Below, one piece after another: positions 5,141-48,765 of a stretch of 64,000 nucleotides of DNA (its first letter is position 1; every line of letters starts with the position of its first letter). The notes below the pieces were generated by a model. The model was given only the letters and a program-made list of their open reading frames with translations. It was not told where the DNA came from and did no database searches. Origin of the DNA: an uncultured Actinomycetota bacterium. Its GTDB lineage: Bacteria > Actinomycetota > Actinomycetes > Mycobacteriales > Mycobacteriaceae. The position numbers were made by a program, and so were the translations under genes. The DNA lies in contig CAVQRJ010000020.1 in the NCBI GenBank assembly GCA_963715215.1, positions 352,343-416,342 of the forward strand. The letters are read 5' to 3'.

Positions 5141-6312
5141 TCAGCCTAGCGCCACGCCATCGCCGATGGTCTTGGCGACACCAGCTGGCTGAGGCAGCGC
5201 GAGCCTGCGCACAGCAATCAATCTGGTGATATCGCTCGCGGTGACGATGCCGACAACCCGGCCCGAGTCGACCACGAGGGCGCGCTTCTCGGCGGCACGT
5301 GCCAGGCGCTCCAGCAGCCCGAGGAACGGCTCGTGCGGCTCCGCCGTCGCCACTTCGTCGCGCGGTATGGCCGCGTCACGAATCAGGGTGGTGGCGCGCT
5401 GATCTGGTGCGACGTCACGCAGCTCGGCCAGCGTGATCAGTCCAGTGATCACCCCGTCGGAGTTCTGGACCGGGTACGACGAGTGGCGGTCGCCCAGCAG
5501 ATAGCGCTGGATGAACTCCTCGACGGAGATCGAGCCGGGAGCGGTATGCGGATCAGCCGTCATCACCTCGGCGACAGACACGCCCGCGAGGGACTGCCGG
5601 GTTAGTATCCACGCCTCTTCGTCGCGAGCGGCGGTGAGCAGGAACCAGCCGATGAACGCCATCCACACACCACCGACCAGTGAGCCCGCCAGGAACTCGA
5701 ACAGCCCCACCCCGATCAACACGTATGCGACCACACGTCCGGCGCGCGCCGCGCCAACGGCAGCGCGGACCGCATCACCGTGTCGGCGCCAGAGGTAGGC
5801 GCGAAGTATCCGGCCCCCGTCCAACGGCGCACCGGGCAGCAGGTTGAACAGCCCGAGTATCAAGTTGATTCCTGCCAGCCACCAAGCGACGGCGACCACG
5901 ATGTTCGTCATGCCGACCACACGCAAACCCGCCGCGGCGCCCGCGAATACCGCCGCTGGTGCGAGGCTCACGGCCGGACCAGATGCAGCGATCCAGAATG
6001 CGGTTCGAGGGGTCTTCGCCTCGCCGCCGAGGCGCGCGATACCCCCGAACAACCACAACTTACGCCCACGACCTCGATGCCCGCGCGGCGGGCGACGATC
6101 GCATGCGTCAGCTCGTGAGCCAGCAGCGAGGCGAGTAGCACCGCGGCGCCACAGGCTCCAGCCAGCCAGTAGGCGCTCGTCGCGTGGCCCGGTGCGGCGT
6201 CAGGCAGCGTGGCGGCCAGGCTCCACGTGAACAACCACAAGATGACCAGCACGCTCCAGTGCACGGTCAGCGGGAACCCGGCCACCCTCCCGAGCGGAAT
6301 ACCCTCGTCCAT
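5141..6312 (-). pseudogene. Site-2 (M50) zinc metalloprotease with CBS domains, Rv2625c/Rip3-like; 1-bp frameshift near 6060
   Basis: HELTH (HExxH), [11 protein letters not shown] and C-terminal CBS pair; frames join at GV(T)LWLFGG. Confidence 0.85.
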
Positions 6313-6350
6313 GTGCTACCTCCAATTTCCTGCCGGACAGAAGCTTCGTG

Positions 6351-6506: not shown

Positions 6507-6538
6507 TAGGGCCGATAGTCCCTACCCTCCGGGGGTAT
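6507..6538. promoter_or_regulatory. Composite site: DosR-like box overlapping a RicR-like TACCC-N5-GGGTA box
   Basis: TAGGGCCGATAGTCCC-TACCC-TCCGG-GGGTAT. Confidence 0.6.
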
Positions 6539-7455: not shown

Positions 7456-7756
7456 GGCCGTCTTCCTTGAGCCCCGAAAATAGGGACAGGCTCATGGAGA
7501 GAAGCACGGGATGAAAGGAACGACAACCGGTTTGGCTTCCCGCAAGCCCCGGTGAGGGCCCAGCTATTCCGGCTGATTCCGGGTCATAGACGGTGAATAA
7601 ACGGCAACCGAAACACGACGGCGAGCCGCTCGGCGATCGCACGTCCTATGCGGCCAGACGCGCAGGTGACCAAGGCCGACGCACCATCGATACGGACGGA
7701 CTCGGTTGACATATAACGATGCCTCAAATCACCGCTTGTCGTGGGCCCGATGGTGG

Positions 7757-7890
7757 CTACAGCGAGGCGAGGATGCTTTGCATGGTGTCGATCTCCTGCT
7801 GCTGGCTGGTGACGATCGAGTGCGCCAGTGCAATCGCCGCGGGATATTGACCTGACGTGATTTCGTTCTGGGCCATCGTGATTGCGCCCT
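7757..7890 (-). pseudogene. C-terminal fragment of a DUF305 (ferritin-like, copper-associated) protein
   Basis: QGAITMAQNEITSGQYPAAIALAHSIVTSQQQEIDTM. Confidence 0.7.
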
Positions 7891-8838
7891 GCCGCCGATC
7901 TCGGCCAATGCGTCGACGGTGGGTTTGATGATCGGCTCGAATGCAGGACCGCTGAGGTGGAAGCCGCCGACGACCGCGGCCACGGTCTCGATGCCGGTGA
8001 GCCTTCGCGCATAACGGACGATGTTGACAATCCCGGCGTGCCCGCACCCGGTCAGCACGATCAGACCGTGACCGGCGACGTGGACGATGAGGGCCTGGTC
8101 GTCGAGGATCAACGGGTCGGGCGCCCAGGTCCCGTCGGTCAGCGCCTCGTGAAACGGCATGCCATGCTCGAAGTCACTGGTGCGATCTACCTCGCCGGTG
8201 ATCAGTACCGAATCGTCAAACAGCAACGATGGCTGGCGGCGTTCGATGACTTCAAGGCCGGCCTGCTGCAGCGCTTTGCGGCTGGGTGAGGGAAGTTCGA
8301 GCTCGAACAGTCCCGGAATCGCGATGCGGCGCTTGGTGAATGCTCCGGGGTGCACGACCAGGGGCAGATTGGACGGGCCGACGGCGCGGACGAATCCGTC
8401 CAGGCCAGTCACGTGGTCGGAGTGCCCGTGACTGAGCACGATCAGCTCAATGTCGAACGGGGACAACCCGAGTCGGCGCATGTTGTCAGACAGACCATCG
8501 GGGGTCATTCCCGCGTCGAACAGCAGGTGGTGGTCGTGGCCGTCGCGGGTGACGGTAACCAGCATGGAAAACCCGTGCTCGGCCAGGGGGATATCGTAGG
8601 TTTCGCCGGTATCGAGCACATTGGTCGCCAGCCGCGACGCGGCGGTGGCCGCGAGCAGACCGTGCCGGTGCACTGGACCCTGATCCGCCAGCAACAGGTC
8701 GGTGCTGTTGTCGACTAGCGTGGTGAGAGTGACCGCGTCGACCGGGACCAGGGTTACCGGATCGGCCGGCGCGACCGCGGATTCGGGTCGTATCGCCCAA
8801 GCCGCCACCGCTGCAGGATGATCAGGTTCGGTGCACAT
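7891..8838 (-). pseudogene. MBL-fold metallo-hydrolase, 3'-truncated and joined to the DUF305 fragment
   Basis: AEHGFS, LFDAG, LSHGHSDHVTG, LTGCGHAG and GGFHL motifs; AGGAGG SD; ends abruptly after ALAEIG. Confidence 0.8.
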
Positions 8839-8960
8839 TGCTGACCTCCTCGCCGGGATTTGCGGCATGACAGTAACGGCTCGCGTCTATGGGGGCGAGA
8901 GTCTTAATTCCCTTTTGGGCACGCAACGTCGTGTTGGCGCATCGCTTGTAGCATGGCCTG

Positions 8961-10320
8961 ATGGCCGGGCCCTGGAGTCTGGACAAACTGGCCGCGGTAT
9001 CCGGTGAGACCGAGGGTCGTCTTCGTCGGTACGTCGACATGGGCCTGTTGCATCGGCAAGCGAATGGAGAATTCGAACCCGATTCTTTGCATCGGTTGCG
9101 GCTGATCCAGTTCGCCCAGACCCGCGGTGTCAGCGACGATCAGCTAGCGGCGGTGACCGCCAGCCAAGGCGATTTGCTTGGAATTTTCAACGAGTTGCAT
9201 GCGTCCACTGATGCCGCCACCGATCTCGCTGCTGCCGCCCGTGAGCTTGGTGTCGATGACGATGTGATGGCCGAACTTGCCGAAATCCTCGGCTGGGACG
9301 ACGTCGGAACCGGCACCGAGGCAGACGTTGCCGCGCTGCATGTGACGGCAAAAGCCCTCGCATTGGGCATGCCTCGCGACGCGCTGATGCAGATGGTGCG
9401 GGTGTTCACCGATGTCATGGATCGGCTGGCCGATGCGGAGGTGCGCACCTTCCACGACTACGTCCACGAGCGCTTCCGCGCCGAAGGACTCACAGGTCCG
9501 CAGTTGCTGGAGACAACGCAGTCCGTCGGGAAACCCGTGCTGGAGCTGGTCGAGCCGGCGCTGCTGTATTTCCACCGACGGGCCTATCAGCGTGCCAACC
9601 GCGAAGATCTGTTGCGCCATCTTGCCGAGGAGACCCACCCGCCTTCGGCGACACCGGGTGAGGAGCAAGTGACGGTTCTGTTCGTCGATTTGGCCAGCTT
9701 TACGGCGCTGACCGCGACGATGGGTGATCACATGGCGGTCGATGTTCTGGGCAGGTTCAGTGCGACGGTGCGAGCCAGCACAGGCCGGTGTGGGGGCAGG
9801 ATCGTCAAGCAGATCGGCGACGCGTTCATGCTGATGTTTAACCGGCCGGCCGATGCGATCGAATTCGGGTTGGAGATGGATCGTTTCGTCCAAGCCGAGT
9901 CCCAGTTCCCTGCCCTGCACATCGGTGCACACCATGGCACTGTCCTCTACCGTGAGGGTGACTATGTCGGCGCCACAGTGAATTTGGCCGCCCGAGTGGC
10001 ATCGGCCGGTGCCGCAGGGAAGTTCCTGATCACCGCAGATCTGCGCGATGCGGTCGGGGATGTCGCTCGACGCCGACTTTGTGTCATTGCCGCCGCAGCG
10101 GCTCAAGGGAATTCGCGATCCAATCTGTCTGATCGAGGTGCGCCGCCGCGGCCCGGAACGCTCGAATCGGCCTGTCGACCCGGTGTGCGGTCTGCTCCTG
10201 GGCCCGGGCGACGTGGCAACTCAGGCCACCTGGAATGGAATCACGTTCGCCTTCTGCTGCGAGCTATGCAGGACGGCTTTCACCGAAGATCCCGCCCGAT
10301 TCGTCAGCTCACATAGTTGA
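8961..10320 (+). CDS. Class III adenylyl cyclase with N-terminal MerR-like HTH and C-terminal YHS/TRASH domain (1-bp frameshift near 10065)
   Basis: VLFVDLASFT, KQIGDAFM and DYVGATVNLAAR; DPVCG...FAFCCELCRTAF in the adjoining frame. Confidence 0.85.
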
Positions 10321-11812
10321 GGCTCGTCATCATCCCAGCTTCTTGGTGATACGCGTTGTGGCAGTGCAGCATCCAGATGCCAGGGTTGTCGGCGACGAGG
10401 ACGGCGCGGGCTTGTCGCATCGGCAACACGATGGCCGTGTCTTTGCGCGCGCCGAGGCTTCCATCAGGCCTGATCATCTGGAATGTGTGCCCGTGCAGGT
10501 GTATTGGATGCCACATCATCGACATGTTGTTGAACGTCAACGTCGCCCGCTGCCCGGCGATGATAGTGAGCGGTTGGTTATCGGGATAGGGGCGCCCGTT
10601 GATTGTCCAGTTGTAGTTCATCATTCCGCCGGAGAGCACGGCCGAGAGGCTGGCGTCAGGTTTGGCCGATCCCAGGGTCACTTGCGGTGTGGCGGTGAAC
10701 ATGTCGACGGTGCCGACACGCTTGGTGAGTTCGGCGGGCTGGAATGCGGCACCGGGCGGGTTGCCGGCGCCAGTGGATAGCAGTGCCCGGGCAACCGCGT
10801 TCTTGCCCTCGGCCAGCGCCACTAGCGGAAACACGCCGTCGCCGGCGGTGACGATGACGTCGTAGCGCTCCCCCATCCCGAGCAGCACCGCATCGACCTC
10901 GGTGGGCACGATCGGGTACCCGTCGGTGTGGGTGACGGTCATCGAATGCCCGGCCATTGCGACCCGGAATGCCGTGTCGGAGCCTGCGTTGATGATCCGT
11001 ATCCGAATGCGCTGGCCGGGCTTGGCGCTGAACGTGCTTGGCGCTGCAGGGATGCGCCCGTTGATCAGGTAGTACGGGTAGTTGACATCTCCGGCGTCCC
11101 CGCCCAGCAGCTCGCTGCGCCCGACCCCACTCATGCCCGACATGCCGCCCATCCCGGGCATGCCGCCCATGCCGTGCTGATCATGCAGGTCGTCGTAGAT
11201 CTCGTGAGGTGTCTTGCCGATGCCGTCGGTCCAGTCGTCGAGCATGACGATCCATTCGGCATCGTAGGTGCCGGCCTCGGTCGGATCGTCCACGATCACC
11301 GGCAGATACAGCCCGTAGTCGGTGTCAAGGCCGGTGTGCGGGTGGGCCCAGTAGGTGCCCGGATGAGCGAGGGAGAACCGGTAGGTGAAGTCGGCGCCGG
11401 CGCCGATGTTCGCGCTGGCGGGTTCGGCGCCGTCCATGTCGTTGCGGATCGCCACGCCGTGCCAATGCACCGAGGTGGGGTGATCGAGCCGGTTGGCGAC
11501 CGTGACGGCGAGCTCGTCGCCGACATTGGCCCTAATCAGCGGCCCGGGAATCGTGTTGCCGTAGGCCAACGTTCGGGCCAGCGTGCCTCCCAGGTCGATG
11601 GTGGTCGGCTGTGGCGTCAATGTGGTGGTGACGGTTCGCCCGGTATGGGGCCGCGCCGCTTCGGCGGTGGAGACAGCAGAAGAATTAGGCCCTACCGCGA
11701 TGCTAGGACGGCTTGGGCGGCCGCAGCCGGCTAGCGCGACCCCACCGGCGATGGCGGCCGCCACGAACGCACGTCGGCTCAGAAAACCGCGTTCCAAGCG
11801 CGACTCCATCAC
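10304..11812 (-). CDS. mmcO: Multicopper oxidase, Tat-exported lipoprotein (MmcO-like)
   Basis: SRRAF Tat motif, LAGC lipobox; HWHG, WAHPH, HPIHLHGH and HCHNAYHQEAGM copper motifs. Confidence 0.92.
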   Translation of the reverse strand: MMESRLERGFLSRRAFVAAAIAGGVALAGCGRPSRPSIAVGPNSSAVSTAEAARPHTGRTVTTTLTPQPTTIDLGGTLARTLAYGNTIPGPLIRANVGDELAVTVANRLDHPTSVHWHGVAIRNDMDGAEPASANIGAGADFTYRFSLAHPGTYWAHPHTGLDTDYGLYLPVIVDDPTEAGTYDAEWIVMLDDWTDGIGKTPHEIYDDLHDQHGMGGMPGMGGMSGMSGVGRSELLGGDAGDVNYPYYLINGRIPAAPSTFSAKPGQRIRIRIINAGSDTAFRVAMAGHSMTVTHTDGYPIVPTEVDAVLLGMGERYDVIVTAGDGVFPLVALAEGKNAVARALLSTGAGNPPGAAFQPAELTKRVGTVDMFTATPQVTLGSAKPDASLSAVLSGGMMNYNWTINGRPYPDNQPLTIIAGQRATLTFNNMSMMWHPIHLHGHTFQMIRPDGSLGARKDTAIVLPMRQARAVLVADNPGIWMLHCHNAYHQEAGMMTSLNYVS

Positions 11813-11870: not shown

Positions 11871-11900
11871 GTGACTTAAGTCCCTACCCCCCGGGGGTAT
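11871..11900. promoter_or_regulatory. Composite site: DosR-like box abutting a RicR-like TACCC-N5-GGGTA box
   Basis: GTGACTTAAGTCCC-TACCC-CCCGG-GGGTAT in the divergent mco / copper ATPase promoter. Confidence 0.7.
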
Positions 11901-12326: not shown

Positions 12327-14883
12327 ATGGTGTCCAGCGTTGACGCTATCGTCGTGGTGGTCGCGGTCCTGGCGATCGCCGGGTTGGCGTGGTACTTCTT
12401 TGCCCCGCGCCGCGCCCGCGCCGCTGCGGTGAGTGGTGGGGTTCAGCGTGTCCAAGTAACGATCCGGGGTGGCTACACCCCCAGCGTCATACAGGTGCGC
12501 CAGGGCATTCCGGTGGAGATCGAGTTCGACCGGCAAGAAACCGGCGACTGCAGCTCGCGGGTGGTCTTTCCCGACCTTCACCTATCGGCGGCGCTGCCCG
12601 CGCATCAGCGCACGACTGTGCGGTTCACCCCACAGCAGGCGGGGTCGTTCTTATTTGCCTGCGGCATGAACATGATCCACGGCACACTCGTCGTCACCCC
12701 CAACGGGCAGGCCGCCCCACCCCACGAACCTGAACAGCCCGACACTGCGGCTCCTGGGTCTGGACGAGCGGATCGTGCCGCTGAGCCGGCCGCCGCCGAG
12801 GTTGAAGCCGCCCAGGCCGAAGGAGCGGCGCGCCGAGATCGCCGACCTGACCCGCCGGGTCGTGATCGGTGCGGTGCTGACCACCCCAGTGTTCTTCGCG
12901 GTGATGGCTCAGTCACTGGGCGCGCACTGGGTGCCGGCGGCATTGCTCAACCACTGGGTGCAGCTGGCGCTGATCACCCCGGTCATGTTCTACGTCGGTT
13001 GGCCAATCCATCGCACCGGCTGGCTCGCGCTAGCGCATCGCAGCGCCGACATGAACAGCCTCATCACCCTCGGCACGGTCGCCGCATACGGCTACAGCCT
13101 GCTGGTCACCGTTGCCCCCGACCTCTTCCCCGCCGACGTGCGGGAGGTCTACTTCGAAGCCGTCGGGGTGATCCTCACCCTGATCATGCTGGGCCGGCTG
13201 CTGGAAGCGCGAGCCAAGGCCGGCACCGGCGAAGCCATCCGCGCCCTACTCGGCCTGCAGGCCCGCACCGCCCGCGTCGCGCGCGACGGCGCCGAAACCG
13301 AAATCCCCATCGACGAAGTGGTCGTCGGTGACGAGATCCTGATCCGCCCGGGCGAGAAGATCCCGGTCGACGCCACCGTCCTGGCGGGTCAGTCCGCTGT
13401 GGATGAGTCCATGGTGACCGGGGAATCGATGCCTGTGACCAAACACACCGGCGACACCGTTATCGGCGCGACCGTCAACACCACTGGCTCGTTGCGGGTG
13501 CGCGCGGCCAAGGTGGGCGCGGACACCATGTTGGCCCAAATCATCCGCATGGTGCAGCAAGCGCAGGCCTCCAGAGCCCCGATCCAGCGGCTGGCCGACG
13601 CGATCTCGGCGTACTTCGTGCCGGTCGTCATCGCGATCGCCATCGCCACCTTCGCCGTCTGGTTCGTCGCCGGTCCGGCCCCGGCGCTGACCAACGCGCT
13701 GGTGTCTGCGGTGTCGGTGCTGATCATCGCCTGCCCATGCGCGCTGGGCCTGGCCACTCCGCTGTCGATCATGGTCGGCACCGGCAAGGGTGCCCGCGCG
13801 GGCATCCTGATCCGCTCGGCCGAGGCTCTGGAGACCGCGCACAAACTCGACACCATCGTGCTGGATAAGACCGGCACCATCACCGCCGGCAAACCCGCCC
13901 TCACCGACGTCGAGGTAGTAGGCGCGCTGCGCGAGGATCAGCTGCTGGTCCTGGTGGCTGCGGCCGAGGCCGACAGTGAACACCCCATCGCCACCGCGAT
14001 CGTCGCCGGAGCCCGGGACCGCGGCATCAGCATTCCCGCCGCCGAGGACTTCGCCTCGATCACCGGCAAGGGAGTACGGGCCACCGTCACCGGACACACC
14101 GTGCTCGTCGGCACCGCAACACTGTTGATCGAAAGTGGCATCGACGCAGCCGAACTGCAACAGATCAGCGAGCGGCTTGCCGCCGCGGGCAAAAGCCCGA
14201 TCCTGGCCGCCGTCGACGGCCAACCGGCCGGGGTGCTCGCCGTCGCCGACACGGTCAAAGACGACTCTGTCGCAGCGATCGCAGCGCTGCGCAAACTGGG
14301 CCTGCAGGTGGTGATGATCACCGGCGACAACGCCCGCACCGCCGCGGCGATCGCCCGCCAGGTCGGGGTCTCCCGAGTCCTCGCCGAAGTCCTTCCCGAA
14401 CATAAAGCCGGCGAGATCCGCCGCCTGCAAGCCGAAGGACGACGGGTCGGCATGGTCGGCGACGGCATCAACGACGCACCGGCCCTGGCCCAAGCCGACG
14501 TCGGCCTTGCCATCGGGACCGGCACCGACGTCGCGATCGAAGCCGCCGACATCACCCTGATCTCCGGGTCGCTGACCGGTGTGGTCACCGCCATCCGGCT
14601 CTCCCGCGCCACCATGCGCAACATCCGGCAGAACCTGTTCTTCGCCCTGATCTACAACGCCATCGGCATCCCTCTGGCCGCCGGAGTGCTCTACCCGCTG
14701 CTCGGGCTGCGACTTTCGCCGATGATCGCCGCCGCCGCAATGGCCCTGTCCTCGCTCTCTGTGGTGGGCAACGCCAACCGCCTGCGCCGCTACCGCATCG
14801 AACCGCTGCCCCCGGCCGAAACGCCCACGATCGAACCCCAGGTGGAAACCGGTGCCGCCCAACACGAACCCGTCGCGTCGTAA
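12327..14883 (+). CDS. copA: Cu(I)-translocating P1B ATPase with N-terminal cupredoxin domain (1-bp frameshift near 12825)
   Basis: FACGMNM cupredoxin; [28 protein letters not shown] and MALSS motifs. Confidence 0.92.
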
Positions 14884-17278: not shown

Positions 17279-17409
17279 TTTTCCGACCGCGGACGCCCGG
17301 ATTACGCCTTTGACCTGCGCTTATGCGTAGATTACATGTTCGCGATGTTGGCATGGCGTTGCGACACGCGGTGGTGTCGCGGAGCGGGGAGGGATGTCGG
17401 TCCGGCTGA

Positions 17410-18000
17410 TCAGCGGGCGGCGCTGGGGTCGGCAAGGCGGGCTTCGAGGTCGGCGATACGCCGGTCTTGGAAGCGCAGGTTGGAGCGGGCGGCGTTGAGG
17501 CGTTCGTCCAGGGTGCGGTTGTCGGCGGTGAGCTGGCGGACACGCTGCTTGAGGGTGGTGTTCTCGGTGGTGACGCGCTGGATCGCGTCCTGGGTCCATT
17601 CGGCTTCCAGGTCGCGGATGCGGCCGAGCAGCTCGCCGATCCGTGTCCGCTGGGCGATGATCTCGTGGTTGGCGGTCTTGAGCGCGTGCTCGGCGTTGAG
17701 CGTACGTTCGCGCCAGCTCGCCGCACCGGCGTCCTCCTGCTTGTCTTGGAGGCGGTCTCGTTGGGCGGCGGTCTCCCGGATGGCTTTGGCGACAGCGGTT
17801 TTCGCGTCGGAGTTGGTGTAGAGGAAGGTCCGGGAGACGTCGGCTCGACGCGCGACCGCGGCAACGGTGGCCGGTGTCTTGTCCCGCCGGAGTCGAGTGA
17901 TCGCCTCGTGCACGCGCTCGAGCGCGGCTTGGGTATTGCGGCGGCGGGCGGCAAGTGCTGCGGCGGTGCGTGGCTGGGGTCGGCCGGTGGTTGTGGTCAC
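17410..18000 (-). CDS. TnpC-like / DUF6262 protein
   Basis: HTH (VAAVARRADVSRTFLY) plus coiled coil; overlaps the tnpB stop. Confidence 0.75.
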   Translation of the reverse strand: MTTTTGRPQPRTAAALAARRRNTQAALERVHEAITRLRRDKTPATVAAVARRADVSRTFLYTNSDAKTAVAKAIRETAAQRDRLQDKQEDAGAASWRERTLNAEHALKTANHEIIAQRTRIGELLGRIRDLEAEWTQDAIQRVTTENTTLKQRVRQLTADNRTLDERLNAARSNLRFQDRRIADLEARLADPSAAR

Positions 18001-20618
18001 GCGCAGGTCTCCTCGTCGTCAATGTCGTTGGTGTCGTTTGCCTTCCGTTTGGTGTCGCTCTCGGTGAGGTCGCTGGCGCGGAAGGCGGTGGACCAGACGC
18101 GGTGGAAGTAGTCCTGGGGTTTGCGCAGGTCCAGGGCGAGGGCTTGGTCGAGCAACCCGAGCCCGGCCAGGGCTTTCTCCAGTCCGTCGATGGCGCGCGC
18201 GGTGGGTTCGAAGTACCGGTGCAGGTAGTCGGCGGTGGCGTCGTCGGGGGCGCCCTCGGCGAGTTGGCGCCATTGTTCGCGTTTGCGCCGCCAATAGAGC
18301 AGATCCGCGCCGGAGAGCACGAACCGATCGCAGTTGTGGCAGTCGAGGTTCCACGGGCAGGTGCCGCCGTCGACGACGGGTTGGAAGGTGCAGAACCCGC
18401 CCTCGGCGGGTGTGGAGCGCCTCGACAGGTCGATCGCCAGCGCCTGGGCCTGCTCGGGGGTCATCGGCGTGAGTTCGCTGGTGAGTAACTCGCCCGGGTT
18501 GGTTGTGCCGGGCCCGGCGACCCACACTTGCTGCAGCACCTGTTCGAGGTCCGAATTCGACAGGTGCACATAGTGTTCGGCCATCCGATCACTGACCTGG
18601 CCGAGGTAGGTGCGGATGTGGGTGAGGCTGGCGCCGGCGCGCAGCAGGTTGGTGGCCAGGGTGTGGCGCGCCTGATGGGCCACCCATCGACCGAGGTCCA
18701 GTGAGTCCACCCAGGCCTTGAACCGAAGGTGGAACCATTGGTGGCTGATCGGCATGCTGGCGTCGGGGTTGAGTCGGGTGGTCGGAAACAGCGCCATCGC
18801 TGCGCGTTCGGCATCGGTGGGGCGGCGTCCGTGGGCGGCGACGAATGCGTCCATGGTCTTCTGTTGCCGTTCGGCCAGGCGCTGGTAGAGGCGTTCGGGG
18901 ATCCGGATGGCGGCGTCGTAGTTGCCGACCTTGGTTTGGTCGTGCCAGAACATCGGCAGCCCGCCGTAGCGCCCCAGGCAGTCCCAGCGGGCATCGATCA
19001 CCTCGCCGATGCGGCGGCCGGTGAGCACGGTGGCTTCCCACATGTCGCGCAGTCCGCGATCGAGGGGATCGTGCTCGGTGGCCAGACGGGCGAGATTGTC
19101 CGGGTCGGCCAGCGCGCGGGCGACCTCGTCCGGAAACGGGCGGCGTGGGGTTTGGCCGGTTGTCTTGCCTGCGGCGGGGGCGGCGACGGTGAACTCCCGA
19201 CTCAGGCCGATCCGGTCCGCGGCCCCGTCGTCGGATGCGTCGCGCAGGAGCTTGCGGACCGCGTTGAACACCAGCGAGCGGGTGGTCGTGGTGACGAGGC
19301 TGGCCGACCCATCGGGGCGTTTCATCGCCAGCGACGGCAGGCCGTCGCGTTCGCGGCGACGTTGGTCGGCGACGAACCGGCGCATGTGCTCGCCGTCGAG
19401 CAGTCGCGGGTCGTGCCCGCCCTCGGGCGCATCGTTCTCCAGGAAGACGCCCAGTTCCGTTGCGGCCCGGCGGGTTGCGTCGAAGACGCCGCCGGTGCGG
19501 GGCGGCTGCGGCAACTGCAGCAGCCCGGTCAGGTGATCCCAGACCAGATCCCGCAGCCAGCGTTGCGGGATGCCGGTGAGGTCGAAATGGCTGCCCCGGT
19601 GCGGAAACCGGATCCCGAAGTGGTCGGTCTCGATGAATCCGGCGTCACGGGTATCGGCCGGGGTGTAGTAGACCAGCCGCAGCTCGCGTTGGATCTCCTT
19701 GGCGATCGCGCGGGCCATCTGCGGACAGCCGCTGATGTCGGGCTGCAAGCCGACCAGCGAGTCGAGCTCCAGGTCACGGCAGGTGATCACCAGCGACCGG
19801 AGCCACCCGAGCTGCCAGCGTTGCGGCCGGGCGCGGCGAGCGTGGACGAACAGTCCCCACTTGATCTCCGCGGCCACCAGCGGCCGCAGCCCGAGTAGAT
19901 TGATCCGGCCGCCGCCCGGTGGCGCCGAGGTGGTGGCGCACCAGCGGCGAAACGCTTGCTCGTCGGCGTAGTCGATCGGCACCGGCTCGCCGATGCGCTC
20001 GTAGCGATTCCACCAGCGCACCGGCAACATCGCCCCGCCCGGGCGCCCGTCACGCTCGTAGCGGGCGTCGTGGCGTGTGCACAATCCCAGCGGCGCGTGC
20101 GCGCGGCTCAGGCACACCGCCACCACACAGGTCCCGTATCCGGGCAGCGGGCTCTGACTGTTCAGCCATTCGTCGAACTGGGCGGCCTCGCCGACCGACT
20201 GCTGGTAGCGGAACCAGCGCATCTGGTGCGAGCGACACAACAACAGCTCCGACTGCGCGATCGGCCGGTCCGGGCAGATCCGGCACGGCGTGTCCTCGAC
20301 CCGCACGTACCGCGGTAAACCCGTTGCGGCGGAAAGGAACGCGGCCTTGCCGACGCCGCGGGCCTGCTCCCGGCTCCACTGAACCTCGTGCTCCCCGCAC
20401 AGATCCCCGCTACCCGAGCCCGGCCGCTGGCACCCATCGACAATGCAGACCCACCGGTAGATCGGATGCTCCGGCGGGACGTCGATCACGTCCGGCCGGA
20501 ACATCGCATCGAACGACGGCCCGTCGATCAACGCGGTCAGGATTTCCAACCGGTCCCGGCCTTCCCGATCTGGTCGAGATGAACACGACTGCAGCAGTTC
20601 CACATTCACGATCGTCAC
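17997..20618 (-). CDS. Large tyrosine recombinase (TnpB-like of Tn554), Cys-rich N-terminus
   Basis: GRRIGEV, HQARHTLAT, YLGQ and HY catalytic residues. Confidence 0.85.
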   Translation of the reverse strand: MTIVNVELLQSCSSRPDREGRDRLEILTALIDGPSFDAMFRPDVIDVPPEHPIYRWVCIVDGCQRPGSGSGDLCGEHEVQWSREQARGVGKAAFLSAATGLPRYVRVEDTPCRICPDRPIAQSELLLCRSHQMRWFRYQQSVGEAAQFDEWLNSQSPLPGYGTCVVAVCLSRAHAPLGLCTRHDARYERDGRPGGAMLPVRWWNRYERIGEPVPIDYADEQAFRRWCATTSAPPGGGRINLLGLRPLVAAEIKWGLFVHARRARPQRWQLGWLRSLVITCRDLELDSLVGLQPDISGCPQMARAIAKEIQRELRLVYYTPADTRDAGFIETDHFGIRFPHRGSHFDLTGIPQRWLRDLVWDHLTGLLQLPQPPRTGGVFDATRRAATELGVFLENDAPEGGHDPRLLDGEHMRRFVADQRRRERDGLPSLAMKRPDGSASLVTTTTRSLVFNAVRKLLRDASDDGAADRIGLSREFTVAAPAAGKTTGQTPRRPFPDEVARALADPDNLARLATEHDPLDRGLRDMWEATVLTGRRIGEVIDARWDCLGRYGGLPMFWHDQTKVGNYDAAIRIPERLYQRLAERQQKTMDAFVAAHGRRPTDAERAAMALFPTTRLNPDASMPISHQWFHLRFKAWVDSLDLGRWVAHQARHTLATNLLRAGASLTHIRTYLGQVSDRMAEHYVHLSNSDLEQVLQQVWVAGPGTTNPGELLTSELTPMTPEQAQALAIDLSRRSTPAEGGFCTFQPVVDGGTCPWNLDCHNCDRFVLSGADLLYWRRKREQWRQLAEGAPDDATADYLHRYFEPTARAIDGLEKALAGLGLLDQALALDLRKPQDYFHRVWSTAFRASDLTESDTKRKANDTNDIDDEETCA

Positions 20619-43944: not shown

Positions 43945-44127
43945 CGCGATCTCCTTCAGAAACCTGGGCAGTTGGGCGGTCCGATTGGCTGAAACACAGC
44001 TGTCGCACACCTGACTGACGGTGGCGTCACGGATGCGGAACAACGGGTGGTCCGCGACTCATTGTGGCGCCTGCTACTGCTGAGTGAAAAGCAAATAGTT
44101 GTGATGGGTTTTGTGCAAAATAATTGC

Positions 44128-45033
44128 ATGATTGACCATCGCCTTCATGTGCTGCGGGTGCTGGCCGCGTGCGGCACTGTGAACGGTGCCGCAGCGACGC
44201 TTAACTACACACCCTCGGCGGTGTCTCATCAAATACGTGGGCTGGCCCAGGACTTGGGGGTCACGCTGCTGGTGAAGGAGGGGCGCGGGGTGCGATTGAC
44301 ACCCGCCGCACGCCTGTTGCTCGCCCGCGCCGACGAGCTGTTTGCCCGGTGGGAGGAAATCCGGGCCGAGCTCGCTGAAATCGGGGACCCCAGCATCGGA
44401 ACGCTGCGCCTGTGCGGATTCTCCACCGCCGCGGCTACCTTGCTGCCGTACGTGGTTTCACCTCTGCGCGCCGTCGACCCGCATTGCACCGTACGCATTG
44501 TCGAGGCCGACCCGCTGGAGTGCTTCGACCTGCTTCTTACCGACGACGCCGATATCGCGGTCGTCGTCGCGACACCGTCGTTACCACCGACGAGCGATCC
44601 CCGATTTGATCAACAGCCGTTGTTGGACGACCCGCTCGAGTTGTTGGTCCCCGCCGGCCACCCGCTGGCGAGCCGCCGGTCGGTGCTGCTGCGCGAGGCC
44701 GCCAACGAACCCTGGGTGCTCGACCGTCCCGGTCGTTCCTACCATCAACTGGTGCAAACGGCATGCGCGGCAGCCGGTTTCACACCCGCCATCGCGCATG
44801 AGGCCAGCGAATGGGAAACCGGCGCCGCGCTGGTGGGCGAAGGCTTGGCGGTCGCGCTGGTCCCGCGCCTGGCCCGGCTGCCGCCGGGATACCCGGTCGC
44901 GCGAGTGCCGTTACGCGGAAATCCCACACCGGCTCGGCACATCCTCACCAGCGTCCGCCGGGGCAGCCGCAACCAGCACGCCATCGCGGTGGCGCTGGAC
45001 GCGCTTGAGGAGATCGCGAGCCGCCACCGCTGA
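44128..45033 (+). CDS. LysR-family regulator
   Basis: AAATLNYTPSAVSHQIRGL; divergent from the Rieske gene. Confidence 0.92.
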   Translation: MIDHRLHVLRVLAACGTVNGAAATLNYTPSAVSHQIRGLAQDLGVTLLVKEGRGVRLTPAARLLLARADELFARWEEIRAELAEIGDPSIGTLRLCGFSTAAATLLPYVVSPLRAVDPHCTVRIVEADPLECFDLLLTDDADIAVVVATPSLPPTSDPRFDQQPLLDDPLELLVPAGHPLASRRSVLLREAANEPWVLDRPGRSYHQLVQTACAAAGFTPAIAHEASEWETGAALVGEGLAVALVPRLARLPPGYPVARVPLRGNPTPARHILTSVRRGSRNQHAIAVALDALEEIASRHR

Positions 45034-45102
45034 TGCCAGCTAGTCCATGTGAAGTGGCCGCAGGGACGGCGTTGCTCCTGCGGCCGTCCCAGCCGACGTC
45101 GG

Positions 45103-45792
45103 CTAGTGCGTATACAGGTGGGCGGTCTCGCTGAGGCTCATCCCCTTCGTCTCCGGGGCCCATAGCTGTGACACCAGGGCACCGCTGAAGACGATGACCG
45201 CCATGGCGAGGATCGTCCACGAGACACCGAATTTCTCGATTGTTATCGGCAACAGGAAGGTGCCCAAACCGGCCCCGATGCGGCTGACGGCGGCGGCGAA
45301 ACCGGTGCCGAGACAACGGACCTCGGTGGGGAACACCTCCCCGGGGTAGATACTCGTCAGCGCCCCATTCATCGCATTCAGGAACGAGAAGACCAGGAAC
45401 AGACCCAGCACGACGGCGGGAGGCGCACCCGACCACAGGCCGATGATCAAGAAGACGACGGTGATGATCCACTGCGGCGGGACGGTGAACACCCGGCGAC
45501 CGGCCTTGTCGATCAACGCACACGTGATGCCAACCCCGGCCACCGCGACCATCGACAGTCCCACGCCACCGGCGAGCCCGCCACTGAGGCCGTACTTCTT
45601 CAGCACATCATCGGCGAACGTCGCGATCGCAAAATAGGGCAGCACGTTGCAGAACCAGAACCACGACACGAAGACCGTCATCCGCCAGTACTGCGGGGAG
45701 AACAGCATCCCGAAGCCGCCCGTGTGCTTGTCCTCGTGCTCGACGTCGGTCATGTCGGCGGCGTCCACCATGTACTTGTGGGCGATGGCGTG
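45103..45792 (-). pseudogene. C-terminal half of an MFS transporter
   Basis: LIDKAGRR, IYPGEVFPTEVR and PETKG. Confidence 0.85.
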
Positions 45793-47478
45793 GGCGACGG
45801 AGTCACCGATGCGATAGACCACGAAGCTGCCGTCGGGGTTGTGCCTAGCCGACTGCGGCCGTAACGCCAGTAGATCCGGAATGACGATTTCGCCGAGGTT
45901 GACCGAGCGGGCCGTCAACGCGTCGAACAACTCCGGGTCCGGGACCGTGCCGTGCTCGATGACGACGGTGTCGACCGTGCGTTCGGCCACCGTCTTGGCG
46001 CCCTCGACCTGCAGCCGCACGACCAGTCGTCGATCCTGCTTCTCGATCTCGATGAGACGATGCAGCACGGTGGTCCCAACGTTGTTGTCGGCGAGCATCT
46101 GGAAGTATCCGACGGCCGGCGAGGCCCCGACGTCCGGGGCGGGGGTCCGTTCCGGCGTCACATACTCCACGCTGCGGGCGGACCTCGTCAGTGCCTCGAC
46201 GGCGTCGAGGGCCTGGTGCCCACCGTGATCGTCGTACACCAGCACGTCGCCCGTCGGCCGCGCGGCACCTGCCAGCAGGTCCCAGCTGTCGATGGCCAAC
46301 GAGTCGCCGGGCACGCCGACCGACGTGTTCGGCACACCTCCGGTCGCGACAATGACGACGTCGACGTCGGTGATCTGGTCGGCGTCGACATAGTGGTTGC
46401 GCCGCAACTGCACCCCGAGTCGGCGGCATTCCGCGACCCGCCAGTCGATGATGCCGATCAGATCGCGCCGGCGCTCCGAGGTCGCGGCCAGCGCGACCTG
46501 GCCGCCGAACGTGTCGTTCGCCTCATACAGCGTCACGGCATGACCCCGTTCGGCGAGCACCCGTGCGGCTTCCAGGCCGGCCGGACCGCCGCCGATGACG
46601 GCGCATCGTTTCGATTCGGCCGCGGGCGTGACCCGCTGCGGCAACTGCTGCTCGCGCCCGGTCGCCGGGTTGTGGATGCAATGCGTCGAGCCCGACGTGT
46701 AGATCGAGTCCAGGCAGATACTCGCACCGACGCACGGCCGAACGCGATCGGCATGGCCGGCGGCGACCTTGCGAGGGAGATCGGGATCGGCTATCAGCGC
46801 CCGGGTCATCCCCACCAGATCCAGCAGTCCCTCCGCGATCGCGTAGCGAGCGGTCGCGACGTCAGCGATCTTGGAGGCGTGCATGACGGGCACGTCGACC
46901 TGCTTCTTCACCCAGCCCGCGAACTCCAGGTGAGGGCTGGCCGGAGTGAACATCGGCGGGATCACCTTCGCCAGCTCCACGTCGGTGTCGGACCGGCCGC
47001 GGATCACGCTGAAGAAGTCGATCCCCGCCTTCGTGAACGCCCGCGCCATCTGGATGGCTTCCTCGGGCCCGGTACCACTGCCATCGGGGCGCTGCTCGTC
47101 GAACGACATCCGCATCCCGACGATGAACTCGTCACCGACCGCAGCACGGATCGCGGCGATCACCTCGAGCGGAAATCTGATCCGGTTCTCCAGCGGACCG
47201 CCGTACTCGTCCTGGCGATGGTTGAATGCCGGCGTCATGAACTCATCGAGCAGATGCCCGCTGTAGGCCGAGATCTCGACGCCGTCGAGACCCGCCTCCT
47301 TACACCGCAGCGCGGTCTCGGCGAAGTCGCGCGCGATCCGCGCCAGATCTCGCACATCCGCGACCCGGGTGAACGCCCGATGGGCGGGCTCGCGGGTACC
47401 ACTGGCCGACAGGGCGGGAATCCAGTCCTGAAAGTAGTTGTACGTCCGATGACCCATATGCGTGAGCTGGGTCATGAC
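45793..47478 (-). pseudogene. Internal part of an NADH:flavin oxidoreductase (StcD/N-methylproline demethylase-like)
   Basis: GLDGVEISAYSGHLLDEF, RQDEYGG, CVGASIC, CIHNPATGRE and IGGGPAGLEAA. Confidence 0.85.
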
Positions 47479-48765
47479 CTGCTCGGCCAGTGCCCGTGGC
47501 AGCTTGTCGGGACGGCGGGGATGATCGGCGGGGAAGAATAGTGCGGTGGCGGGAAGCCCTGGGTGCCAACGATGTTGACGGATCGCGACGAAGAATCCGT
47601 TCAGCAGTCCTATATGGGCGCTGCGGCGTTGTGGATGGCGTTCGTGCCCCAGGTCTGCCAGATAGCGTTCGAGCAGCTGACGATCGAGTTGCTCGATGTG
47701 CTCGACACCGACCGCGGCCAGGAACCGCGAGAACCGGCTGATCGCCACCACCGCCCGGGCGCCTCCGGCTTCCAAGCCCAGTCCGCTCGACAACCGCAGC
47801 CGGACCCAGCGCTTGGCCAGCTCCCGCAGCCATGGCTGGGTGATCCGGTCGAATTGCAGGGTGCGGCGGCCGTCGAAGCCGAGGCGGTGCATCCGCCAGA
47901 CATCGCGCGGGTATTCGGCTTCCCAGCCGCCGGTCTCGGCCAGATCGGCGACGGCCCGACGCGCATAGAGCAGCAGAGCGCGCCCGAGGCTGTCGTTGAC
48001 GGTCCCGTCGGCGATCGTGAGCCAGGTGCCCTCGTCGTGGTCGAGCAACGACGTCACCGACGAGGCCGCCAGCAGCCGAACCACGCGAGTGACGACACTC
48101 GGTGCGAGCTTGCCGACGCGCCGGTCACGACGCTGCTGCAACGTGTACTGCAGTTCCAGTCGCAGCTGCGGCGGCAGTTGGCCGAGCTGGATCGACTGAT
48201 CGGCGGGCACGACCAGGCCGGGGTCGAACCTCGCTGCGAAGGTGTCGATCTCGGGACGGCCGTTGGCCCGCCAGGTCGCGTTGTGAGAATGACAGAACGG
48301 CCCCGACGCCTCCGGCCAAAGCACACAGTGCCGGATGCGGCAGCTCGCCCCGGCTGGCGGCGGCTTGATCACCGGAGGATCAGCCATCCAGGTCCCGCGG
48401 TCGGGCCGCCCGGCCCGTTCCCACCGCTGAGCATGCAGCTGACACAAGCCTTTGCGCGCGGATCCGTATCCGCAGCCGGTGACCGCGCACCGCTGGTTCG
48501 GTCGTTGCCGTTGTAACCGGGGGTCGGTCCGCGTGATGAATGCCTCCAGATCCGGGCGTCCCTGCTTGACCCATCGCACTCGATGATTCAGGCACAACCC
48601 GTGTCCACGAGCATGGCGGTCGCAACCGGCCACCCGGCAGGCTCCGCCGCCGAACACCGGATCATCCGGCTCGAAAATCAATGTCTGGCTGCGGAACTCG
48701 GCCCGGACGACCGCCATCAGCCTGCCCAGCTGGCTCTGCGGGCCTTCCGCTCCCGGGGCGGTCAC
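47464..48765 (-). pseudogene. N-terminal half of a Tn554-TnpB-like recombinase (catalytic domain deleted)
   Basis: Cys-rich repeats (CRVAGC, CAVTGC, CRIRHC) like the 17997-20618 protein; ends at LPRAL; GTG overlaps the tnpA stop. Confidence 0.8.

What the first reader, a model, noticed from the sequence alone, without database searches (positions are those of the whole stretch)
8961..10320. HTH-adenylyl cyclase-YHS/TRASH protein inside a copper island: candidate metal-sensing cAMP source
Seen: MerR-like N-terminus, a full class III catalytic set (two Asp, ATP-specifying Lys, N-x-x-x-R) and a DPVCG...CC-x-x-C tail; converges with the multicopper oxidase gene. Known: YHS/TRASH domains are Cys-rich metal-binding modules found on copper ATPases and regulators. 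Inference: a copper- or heavy-metal-gated cyclase, possibly DNA-associated, linking metal stress to cAMP signalling.
Basis: partly seen in the sequence, partly recalled or inferred. Interest (0 to 1): 0.68.

Follow-up and report, generated by a model that had tools for sequence, protein, structure and literature searches.

The report
Broken copper-sensor adenylyl cyclase gene
This is a frameshifted, probably dead copy of a widespread cAMP-making enzyme with a copper-binding YHS tail, a type already shown in Mycobacterium phlei to be switched on by copper, sitting in a decaying accessory copper-resistance gene cluster.

Summary
Window 8961-10320 encodes a MerR-like N-terminus and a class III cyclase domain with all canonical catalytic residues. 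A YHS domain (D-x2-C...C-x3-C) follows in the +1 frame, and the gene overlaps the multicopper oxidase gene tail to tail.

One extra base at 10065-10068 splits the gene. It cuts the cyclase before its terminal Lys and removes YHS. Three separate assemblies with diverged alleles share this frameshift, and they also share an 849-bp deletion next door. So it is probably a real pseudogene, about 0.75.

The "HTH" is the first of two MerR-like repeats in that domain.

Copper activation through YHS is already published for the short M. phlei enzyme (Linder 2015, PMC4626032). Full-length relatives occur in 208 species genomes across several phyla. In Actinomycetota, 16 of 21 loci lie within 10 kb of copper or metal genes, against about 2.5% of random windows in this genome.

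Verdict: a broken new member of a known kind, of low to moderate interest. The useful additions are the domain dissection and the neighbourhood statistics.

The parts
8949..8954 (+). TAGCAT, a -10-like hexamer 6 nt before the ATG. It suggests an own promoter of the leaderless type.
   Evidence: The block (C/T)TGTAGCATGGC-N3-5-ATG is kept upstream of about 10 mycobacterial homologues that have different upstream neighbours. The sigma-70 consensus scan found nothing. Leaderless transcription is an inference.
8961..10064 (+). Frame-0 part of the cyclase gene, M1-V368.
   Evidence: ORF list and translation. 96.7% identical to residues 1-368 of the intact relative P0002.
8976..9143 (+). MerR-like winged helix, first repeat (res 6-61).
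   Evidence: Pfam MerR_1 E=1.8e-4, and 35 of 44 relatives hit it, best 2.2e-11. PDB profile hit to Tn501 MerR, E=3.5e-5. Foldseek neighbours of the AF2 fragment are almost all MerR-family DNA-binding domains. The wing is 5 residues shorter than in a real MerR.
9075..9650 (+). Rv1264-type regulatory domain (about res 39-230), containing a second, degenerate MerR-like repeat (about res 86-160).
   Evidence: Pfam Ad_Cy_reg PF16701 in 30 of 44 relatives, best 4.4e-14. The family profile matches the Rv1264 holoenzyme 1y10 at E=8.5e-46 over profile positions 39-401. The top Foldseek hits are 1y10 and 1y11. Internal repeat: hhalign probability 95.4%, E=1.9e-8.
9660..10149 (+). Class III (IIIc-type) cyclase catalytic domain, interrupted at 10065-10068.
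   Evidence: Pfam Guanylate_cyc. PDB hits to Ma1120, Rv1900c and Rv1264 catalytic domains. D243, K283, D334, N341 and R345 are invariant across 44 relatives; D287 and K382 are kept in at least 90%.
10065..10068 (+). Frameshift site. GCTC stands where intact relatives have one codon (ACT), so there is one extra base.
   Evidence: DNA alignment with the intact L001 and L092. The same extra base is present in L090 and L091.
10069..10320 (+). +1-frame remainder, D370-S452 plus the stop codon. It holds the last cyclase strands with RLKG, a linker, and YHS.
   Evidence: 100% identical to residues 370-452 of P0002. Translation.
10177..10308 (+). YHS domain (res 406-449): D406, C409, C432, C436.
   Evidence: Pfam YHS E=3.6e-8. 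The four ligand positions are invariant in 44 relatives and are the same positions that Linder 2015 proposed as copper ligands.
10304..11812 (-). Multicopper oxidase, convergent with the cyclase gene and overlapping it by 17 nt.
   Evidence: Pfam Cu-oxidase_3, Cu-oxidase and Cu-oxidase_2. A RicR-type box lies upstream at 11885-11899.
12327..14883 (+). Cupredoxin_1-P1B-type ATPase, with a +1 frameshift (one extra base within 12819-12822; this site, unlike 10065-10068, lies in a short A/G run).
   Evidence: Pfam. tblastn with the intact 845-aa M. vanbaalenii plasmid homologue splits into two frames. The extra base is absent from L090, L091 and L092.
7729..8868 (-). Metallo-beta-lactamase-fold gene, divergent from the cyclase gene. 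Its 3' end is fused to a DUF305 remnant by an 849-bp deletion whose junction lies at about 7879-7891.
   Evidence: Pfam Lactamase_B. The DUF305 C-terminal peptide is visible in ORF 7757..8047. The intact arrangement in L092 is DUF305 235 aa plus MBL 358 aa. Alignment break.
6523..6537 (.). RicR-type palindrome TACCC-N5-GGGTA. A second copy lies at 11885-11899. There is none in the cyclase promoter region 8869-8960.
   Evidence: Pattern search.

Best explanation
The locus is a disrupted copy of the long form of the AC-YHS family.

The intact protein (452 aa in a 97% identical relative) would be a homodimeric class IIIc adenylyl cyclase with two regulatory inputs:
- an N-terminal Rv1264-type autoinhibitory domain built from two MerR-like repeats, the first still a complete winged helix;
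- a C-terminal YHS domain that binds copper through Asp-Cys-Cys-Cys and switches the catalytic dimer on. This was shown in vitro only for the short M. phlei enzyme and is inferred here.

The gene travels with accessory copper-resistance genes. It appears to have its own promoter rather than a RicR-type operator.

In this genome a 1-bp insertion after codon 368 shifts the frame. The product then lacks the last catalytic strands (RLKG Lys382) and the YHS sensor, so it should make no copper-regulated cAMP. The surrounding cluster is decaying as well: DUF305 is deleted, the MBL gene is truncated and fused, and the ATPase is frameshifted.

Shown here: sequence, domains, frameshift, distribution and neighbourhood. 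Inferred: copper activation of the long form, loss of function, and promoter type.
For: Domains and catalytic or ligand residues.

Rv1264 homology across the regulatory and catalytic domains: E=8.5e-46; Foldseek 1y10 and 1y11 on top; AF2 model pLDDT 90.4.

MerR-like fold of residues 1-78. Internal repeat.

Published copper activation through YHS: (PMC4626032). Short CHD-YHS forms of 219-237 aa share 37-42% identity over the whole CHD-YHS part.

Frameshift. The same extra base occurs in three assemblies from different samples whose alleles differ at 21 sites. The same three share an 849-bp deletion. The possible 'true' 9-mers are abundant in this assembly (253 to 1124 copies), and no frame changes cluster at the k-mers around the site.

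Metal linkage: 16 of 21 actinobacterial loci against 2.3-2.6% of random 21-kb windows in this genome.

Accessory status: none of 40 relatives carries the gene, 24 of them in the same genus.
Against: All three frameshifted alleles come from ENA assemblies with Flye-style contig names, so they are probably long-read assemblies. These assemblies carry private 1-bp indels: 7 in 9 kb for L090, and the ATPase one in the window. All the Illumina-type relatives that I read are intact. A recurrent technical error is therefore not excluded.

The 252 nt after the frameshift are identical in the three broken alleles and encode a perfect YHS. That fits a very recent lesion or an artefact.

Copper activation has been shown only for the short form, at about 40% identity. 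No long-form enzyme has been assayed.

In distant phyla only about 7 of 40 long loci have CsoR plus a P1B ATPase nearby.
Confidence: 0.75

Rival explanations
1. The frameshift is an assembly or base-calling artefact. The organism then carries an intact, functional 452-aa copper-sensor cyclase, and the ATPase is intact as well.
For: The genome is a 28-contig draft with 92.6% estimated completeness. Its nearest relatives are assemblies with Flye-style contig names that differ from each other by many private 1-bp indels inside genes. Every Illumina-type relative inspected is intact, including alleles with Ala at residue 369 (GDVADAGF). The sequence downstream of the shift encodes a flawless YHS.
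Against: The same extra base is present in three assemblies from three samples with diverged alleles. The site is not a homopolymer. The candidate true contexts GTCGCTGAC, GTCGCCGAC and GTCGTCGAC are abundant in this assembly, and the k-mers around the site show no excess of frame changes. The same three assemblies share an 849-bp deletion, which cannot be a base-calling error.
Confidence: 0.22
2. In the intact family, the N-terminal MerR-like winged helix binds DNA. The protein would then be a transcription factor and a copper-gated cAMP synthase in one chain.
For: A complete wHTH fold whose closest structural neighbours are DNA-bound MerR proteins. Pfam MerR_1 hits in 35 of 44 members. An Arg at the position of the MerR recognition-helix Arg (R20) is kept in at least 90% of the 11 mycobacterial sequences of alignment A2. 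The enzyme is an obligate dimer, as MerR regulators are (established knowledge of class III cyclases).
Against: The wing is 5 residues shorter and lacks the R-x-Y motif. The module is one of two tandem repeats of a regulatory domain that has no known DNA role in Rv1264. There is no long coiled-coil helix after helix 4. No conserved palindrome was seen upstream of homologues, only a -10-like block.
Confidence: 0.2
3. The split gene is still used. Either there are two polypeptides (a 368-residue N-terminal part, plus a 90-aa protein from ATG 10048 carrying the last cyclase strands and YHS), or ribosomes shift frame at 10065-10068.
For: An ATG-initiated +1-frame ORF 10048..10320 spans the shift. 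The three broken alleles have no substitutions in the 252 nt downstream, against 21 variable sites in the 1104 nt upstream.
Against: There is no slippery sequence at the site. The cut falls inside the catalytic fold, before K382. The lack of downstream diversity is equally explained by recent common descent of the mutated haplotype. Adjacent genes are decaying too.
Confidence: 0.03
4. The YHS domain of the long form senses something other than copper, such as another thiophilic metal or thiol oxidation. The main control would then be pH or fatty acid acting through the Rv1264-type domain.
For: Rv1264-type domains are pH and lipid sensors (PDB titles for 1y10 and 1y11; established literature on Rv1264). 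Many distant homologues have no copper genes nearby. The only assay used Cu2+, not the cytoplasmic Cu(I).
Against: The M. phlei enzyme was not activated by Zn, Fe, Co, Ni or Cr, and activation was reversed by EDTA, which argues against oxidation. The ligand set is identical. Linkage to copper genes is strong in Actinomycetota.
Confidence: 0.12

Closest known systems
MpAC, the YHS-domain class IIIc adenylyl cyclase of Mycobacterium (Mycolicibacterium) phlei (Linder 2015, PLoS One 10:e0141843, PMC4626032)
   Same: A class IIIc catalytic domain with all canonical residues. An approximately 10-residue linker. A C-terminal YHS with the same Asp and three Cys positions. Short forms of this size share 37-42% identity over the whole CHD-YHS part. 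The paper's own data set spans 216-473 aa, so it already included long forms.
   Different: MpAC is 233 aa with no N-terminal domain. The protein here has about 230 extra N-terminal residues (MerR-like repeats forming an Rv1264-type regulator). That form has never been assayed, and this copy is frameshifted.
Rv1264 (and its paralogue Rv2212), pH- and fatty-acid-regulated adenylyl cyclases of M. tuberculosis; PDB 1y10, 1y11, 2ev1
   Same: Homologous over both the regulatory and the catalytic domain (profile E=8.5e-46; top Foldseek hits). Pfam Ad_Cy_reg is present in 30 of 44 relatives.
   Different: Rv1264 aligns only from its residue 24 to profile position 39, so it lacks the helix-turn-helix and wing of the first repeat. 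It also has no YHS tail. This genome has a separate Rv1264 orthologue on contig C22.
MerR-family metal-sensing regulators (CueR, MerR, SoxR, NmlR)
   Same: Residues 1-78 have the MerR winged-helix fold and a weak but significant sequence match.
   Different: The wing is shortened. There is no long dimerisation coiled coil and no C-terminal metal loop. Here the metal site is a YHS domain at the far end of a cyclase. DNA binding is untested.
Mycobacterial copper-response clusters (RicR/CsoR regulons with the MmcO-type oxidase and CtpV-type ATPase)
   Same: The neighbouring oxidase and a Met/His-rich gene carry TACCC-N5-GGGTA boxes. A P1B ATPase and DUF305 are nearby.
   Different: The cyclase gene itself has no such box. 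The cluster is accessory and absent from 24 same-genus genomes.

Membership tests
AC-YHS copper-sensor cyclases (Linder 2015) | Class III (IIIc) catalytic domain with the six canonical residues | tested here: met
   D243, D287, K283, D334, N341 and R345 are present in frame 0. K382 is present but lies in the +1 frame. Class IIIc is assigned through homology to Rv1264 and Ma1120 and through the paper's statement that all AC-YHS proteins are IIIc.
AC-YHS copper-sensor cyclases (Linder 2015) | C-terminal YHS domain with Asp-x2-Cys ... Cys-x3-Cys, joined to the cyclase by a linker of about 8-11 residues | tested here: met
   Pfam YHS E=3.6e-8. D406, C409, C432 and C436 are invariant. The linker RRGPERSNRPV has about 10 residues.
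AC-YHS copper-sensor cyclases (Linder 2015) | One continuous reading frame that joins the cyclase to YHS | tested here: not met
   One extra base at 10065-10068. It is intact in the 97% identical P0002 and P0136.
AC-YHS copper-sensor cyclases (Linder 2015) | Copper-specific activation that depends on YHS | not testable with these tools
   Biochemistry exists only for the short M. phlei enzyme.
Rv1264-type regulated cyclases (Pfam Ad_Cy_reg + cyclase domain) | N-terminal helical regulatory domain homologous to Rv1264 residues 1-191, directly followed by the cyclase domain | tested here: met
   PDB profile hit to 1y10 at E=8.5e-46 and to 2ev1 (regulatory domain alone) at 1.1e-8. PF16701 in 30 of 44 relatives. 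Foldseek.
Rv1264-type regulated cyclases (Pfam Ad_Cy_reg + cyclase domain) | Activation by acidic pH or binding of fatty acid | not testable with these tools
   Would need enzyme assays.
MerR-family transcription regulators | N-terminal winged helix-turn-helix of the MerR type | tested here: met
   Pfam MerR_1 is above its cut-off. hhalign to a heavy-metal MerR gives E=4.8e-5. Foldseek neighbours are MerR-family DNA-binding domains, rmsd 2.4-3.0 A over 64-70 residues.
MerR-family transcription regulators | Full-length wing with conserved Arg/Tyr, then a long antiparallel coiled coil and a C-terminal effector site | tested here: not met
   A 5-residue deletion in the wing. After helix 4 come short helices and a second MerR-like repeat, not a coiled coil.
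MerR-family transcription regulators | Specific binding to a promoter with a long spacer | not testable with these tools
   No conserved palindrome was seen upstream. Would need EMSA or ChIP.
RicR/CsoR regulon member | TACCC-N5-(G/A)GGTA operator in its promoter | tested here: not met
   Boxes occur only at 6523 and 11885, with none in 8869-8960.

The most novel reading that the evidence does not exclude
The complete first MerR-like repeat of the long-form family is a working DNA-binding domain. Intact relatives would then be DNA-tethered cAMP generators gated by copper and by pH or lipid. More broadly, the Rv1264-type regulatory domain of mycobacterial cyclases would descend from a duplicated MerR DNA-binding module. 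The copy in this window would be a recently inactivated example.
Probability: 0.15. Interest if true: 0.6.

Novelty: new member of a known kind. Interest (0 to 1): 0.28.

Why it matters
The physiological role of copper-sensor cyclases is still open; Linder 2015 calls it "open to speculation". Three points here bear on it:

- **Genomic link to copper.** The long form is strongly linked to copper-resistance genes in Actinomycetota. This is genomic support for a copper-to-cAMP link in vivo.
- **Two known sensor modules in one protein.** The long form joins an Rv1264-type switch and a YHS tail, each studied separately before. That makes it a good candidate for studying signal integration.
- **Dispensable in at least one lineage.** This lineage appears to have lost the enzyme, together with DUF305 and perhaps the ATPase, so the sensor is not essential there.

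For genome annotation, the two ORFs should be called one pseudogene or re-checked with reads. They should not be annotated as a truncated cyclase plus a small YHS protein.

Tried and rejected

**Exact look-up of the frameshifted product.** Nothing on record for P0001. The cluster look-up worked instead.

**Motif-linked base-calling error.**
- Frame-change rate at every 6- to 8-mer of the site context was 4-11%, against a baseline of 7.3%, so there is no enrichment.
- My detector did not fire at the two known sites, because GC3 in this gene is only about 0.74. Its sensitivity is therefore limited.
- The candidate uncorrupted 9- and 11-mers are abundant.

**Other checks that found nothing.**
- RicR/CsoR operator upstream of the cyclase: none.
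- Sigma-70 promoter and intrinsic terminator scans of 8700-10500: none.
- A second AC-YHS copy in the genome: none among about 28 other cyclase domains.
- Orthologues in 40 relatives: none.
- Plasmid origin: only the ATPase and recombinase genes match plasmids, at 76-82% identity, and no plasmid carries the cluster.
- Papers linking Rv1264 to MerR: none relevant.

**Inconclusive or not possible.**
- A genome-wide estimate of indel error from ORF lengths gave 79 ORFs of at least 1000 aa, the longest 3202 aa. This does not settle the question.
- AF2 coordinates are not exposed, so I could not check whether the recognition helix is buried.

Full report
**1. What is in the sequence**

Between 8961 and 10320 there are two overlapping plus-strand reading frames.
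- Frame 0 (8961..10316, 451 aa) hits Pfam MerR_1 (res 6-61, E=1.8e-4) and Guanylate_cyc (res 234-360, E=5.5e-13).
- The +1 frame, which ends at 10320, hits YHS (E=3.6e-8).

A 98-99% identical metagenome contig (L001) encodes one uninterrupted 452-aa protein, P0002. The DNA alignment shows a single extra base in the window: GTC GCT C GAC (10062-10071) against GTC ACT GAC.

All canonical class III residues are present: D243, D287, K283, D334, N341 and R345. The terminal Lys of the RLKG motif (K382), the last strands of the fold, the linker and the YHS ligands (D406, C409, C432, C436) all lie after the shift. The gene overlaps the 3' end of the convergent multicopper oxidase gene by 17 nt.

**2.

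I scanned 44 full-length relatives individually:

| Pfam family | Relatives hit |
|---|---|
| Guanylate_cyc | 44 of 44 |
| YHS | 44 of 44 |
| MerR_1 | 35 (best E=2.2e-11) |
| Ad_Cy_reg (PF16701, the Rv1264 regulatory domain) | 30 (best E=4.4e-14) |

- A profile of the family matches the Rv1264 holoenzyme (PDB 1y10) at E=8.5e-46 over profile positions 39-401. That span covers the regulatory and the catalytic domain. It also matches Tn501 MerR at E=3.5e-5 over positions 3-100.
- An AlphaFold2 model of P0002 is confident (pLDDT 90.4, pTM 0.84). Its best structural matches are Rv1264 in both states, followed by other mycobacterial cyclase domains.
- A separate model of residues 1-110 (pLDDT 84.8) has MerR-family DNA-binding domains as almost its only neighbours: SoxR, NmlR, MtaN, CueR, BmrR, TipAL and GlnR. 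The E-values are modest, from 0.015, but rmsd is 2.4-3.0 A over 64-70 residues.
- Against a genuine heavy-metal MerR, the N-terminus aligns with a 5-residue deletion in the wing.
- Residues 4-78 align to residues ~86-160 of the same protein family, with hhalign probability 95.4% and E=1.9e-8.

The N-terminal half is therefore a tandem of two MerR-like repeats. Together with the following helices, they form an Rv1264-type regulatory domain. Rv1264 itself aligns only from its residue 24, so it has lost the helix-turn-helix of repeat 1.

**3. Is the idea already known?**

Yes, in its core. Linder 2015 (PMC4626032) expressed the 233-aa CHD-YHS cyclase of M. phlei and showed the following:
- 1-10 uM Cu2+ stimulates it six-fold with Mn2+ as cofactor.
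- With Mg2+ as cofactor, Cu2+ switches it from inactive to active.
- Zn, Fe, Co, Ni and Cr do nothing.
- EDTA reverses the effect.
- The isolated catalytic domain is only inhibited by copper.

The paper proposed the same Asp and three Cys as ligands. It states that AC-YHS proteins range from 216 to 473 aa and are all class IIIc. It does not discuss an N-terminal domain.

Short CHD-YHS proteins of 219-237 aa share 37-42% identity with the whole CHD-YHS part of this protein. No other paper in the library links YHS, cyclase and copper.

**4. Distribution and neighbourhood**

More than 623 proteins match the N-terminal 366 residues. Nearly all carry both Guanylate_cyc and YHS, and several are already auto-annotated as 'class 3 adenylate cyclase/YHS domain-containing protein/DNA-binding transcriptional MerR regulator'.

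In one genome per species, 208 genomes encode a relative, and most of the 80 best match over nearly the full length. They include Mycobacteriaceae, Acidimicrobiia, Chloroflexota, Binatia, delta- and betaproteobacterial MAGs and others.

I searched the 10-kb flanks with copper and metal proteins: oxidase, P1B ATPase, cupredoxin, CsoR, DUF305, HMA, BlaI/CopY and others.
- 16 of 21 actinobacterial loci have at least one such gene.
- Only 2.3-2.6% of random 21-kb windows of this genome do.
- In more distant phyla only about 7 of 40 long loci show CsoR plus a P1B ATPase.

None of 24 same-genus and 16 same-order genomes has the gene, so it is accessory. The genome has about 28 other cyclase domains but no second AC-YHS.

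**5. Is the frameshift real?**

Indirect evidence that it is real:
- The 451-aa frameshifted product clusters with two other 451-aa products, P0121 and P0123. They come from different ENA samples, differ from the window at several residues, and have the identical out-of-frame tail.
- At DNA level the three broken alleles differ at 21 sites but share the extra C.
- The same three share an 849-bp deletion. It removes most of DUF305 and the 3' end of the MBL gene, both of which are intact in the close relative L092.
- The site is not a homopolymer.
- The possible uncorrupted contexts are abundant in this assembly, and the k-mers of the site show no excess of frame changes.

Evidence against:
- These assemblies have Flye-style contig names and carry private 1-bp indels inside genes (L090 has seven in 9 kb).
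- This genome is 92.6% complete by marker genes despite having only 28 contigs.
- All Illumina-type relatives are intact.

I put the cyclase frameshift at about 0.75 real. The ATPase frameshift (12819-12822) is private to this window, and I put it nearer 0.4.

**6. Mechanism**

Established for relatives:
- Class III cyclases work as head-to-tail dimers.
- YHS confers copper activation in MpAC.
- Rv1264-type domains are autoinhibitory pH and lipid switches.

Inferred for the intact long form: a dimeric cyclase held off by the N-terminal domain and switched on when YHS binds copper. It appears to be transcribed from its own promoter. A TAGCAT block 6 nt before the ATG is kept in mycobacterial homologues whatever the upstream gene, which suggests a leaderless mRNA. 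There is no RicR-type box.

For this window: translation ends in an 83-residue out-of-frame tail after V368. The product has neither the complete catalytic fold nor the sensor, so it should be inactive.

**7. Verdict**

The copper-sensor idea is right but published. The DNA-binding idea is doubtful. The Rv1264-type domain was overlooked.
- The copy here is most likely a pseudogene in a decaying accessory copper cluster.

Earlier notes of this scan on the same architecture in another genome reach the same classification. I treated them as leads and re-tested the Rv1264 homology and the MerR-like repeat myself.

Noticed in passing
window 12327-14883 (shift at 12819-12822): The cupredoxin-P1B ATPase is split by one extra base in GAA G GAG. 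Its 845-851-aa homologues are intact on an M. vanbaalenii plasmid and in L090 and L092. The indel is private to this window, so it may be an assembly error.
   Followed up: partly
window 7729-8868, junction about 7879-7891: An 849-bp deletion relative to L092 removes most of DUF305 and the last ~40 codons of the MBL-fold gene, giving a fused 379-aa ORF. L090 and L091 share it.
   Followed up: partly
window 8943-8963 and the upstream regions of L004, L005, L007, L009, L012, L014, L084, L086: The block (C/T)TGTAGCATGGC-N3-5-ATG is conserved directly before the start codon whatever the upstream gene. It looks like a -10 element of a leaderless transcript.
   Followed up: partly
own genome, contig C22, about 44100-48540: The Rv1264 orthologue of this genome (no HTH, no YHS) lies directly beside a P1B-type ATPase and a DUF305 gene. 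This is a second pairing of a cyclase with metal genes.
   Followed up: no
window 5141-6315, minus strand: An M50 peptidase with CBS domains appears as two overlapping ORFs in different frames, and only the C-terminal third of the M50 profile is matched. It may be another frameshift.
   Followed up: no
window 10069-10320 compared with L090 and L091: The three frameshifted alleles have no differences in the 252 nt after the shift, against 21 variable sites in the 1104 nt before it. About 5 differences would be expected at the upstream rate. Site patterns upstream look mosaic, which suggests recombination.
   Followed up: partly
P0014, P0135, P0117 (ENA assemblies): Other close alleles are broken at other positions: a 307-aa product with a different out-of-frame tail, a 479-aa read-through past the stop codon, and a 253-aa product. 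Either the gene decays repeatedly or these assemblies are error-prone.
   Followed up: no
window 6523-6537 and 11885-11899: Perfect TACCC-N5-GGGTA palindromes (RicR type) lie upstream of the Met/His-rich membrane protein gene and between the oxidase and ATPase genes.
   Followed up: partly
window 17400-20000: This stretch matches plasmid genes annotated as tyrosine recombinase and DUF6262 in Rhodococcus and Streptomyces at 75-78% identity. Mobile elements therefore border the copper cluster.
   Followed up: no
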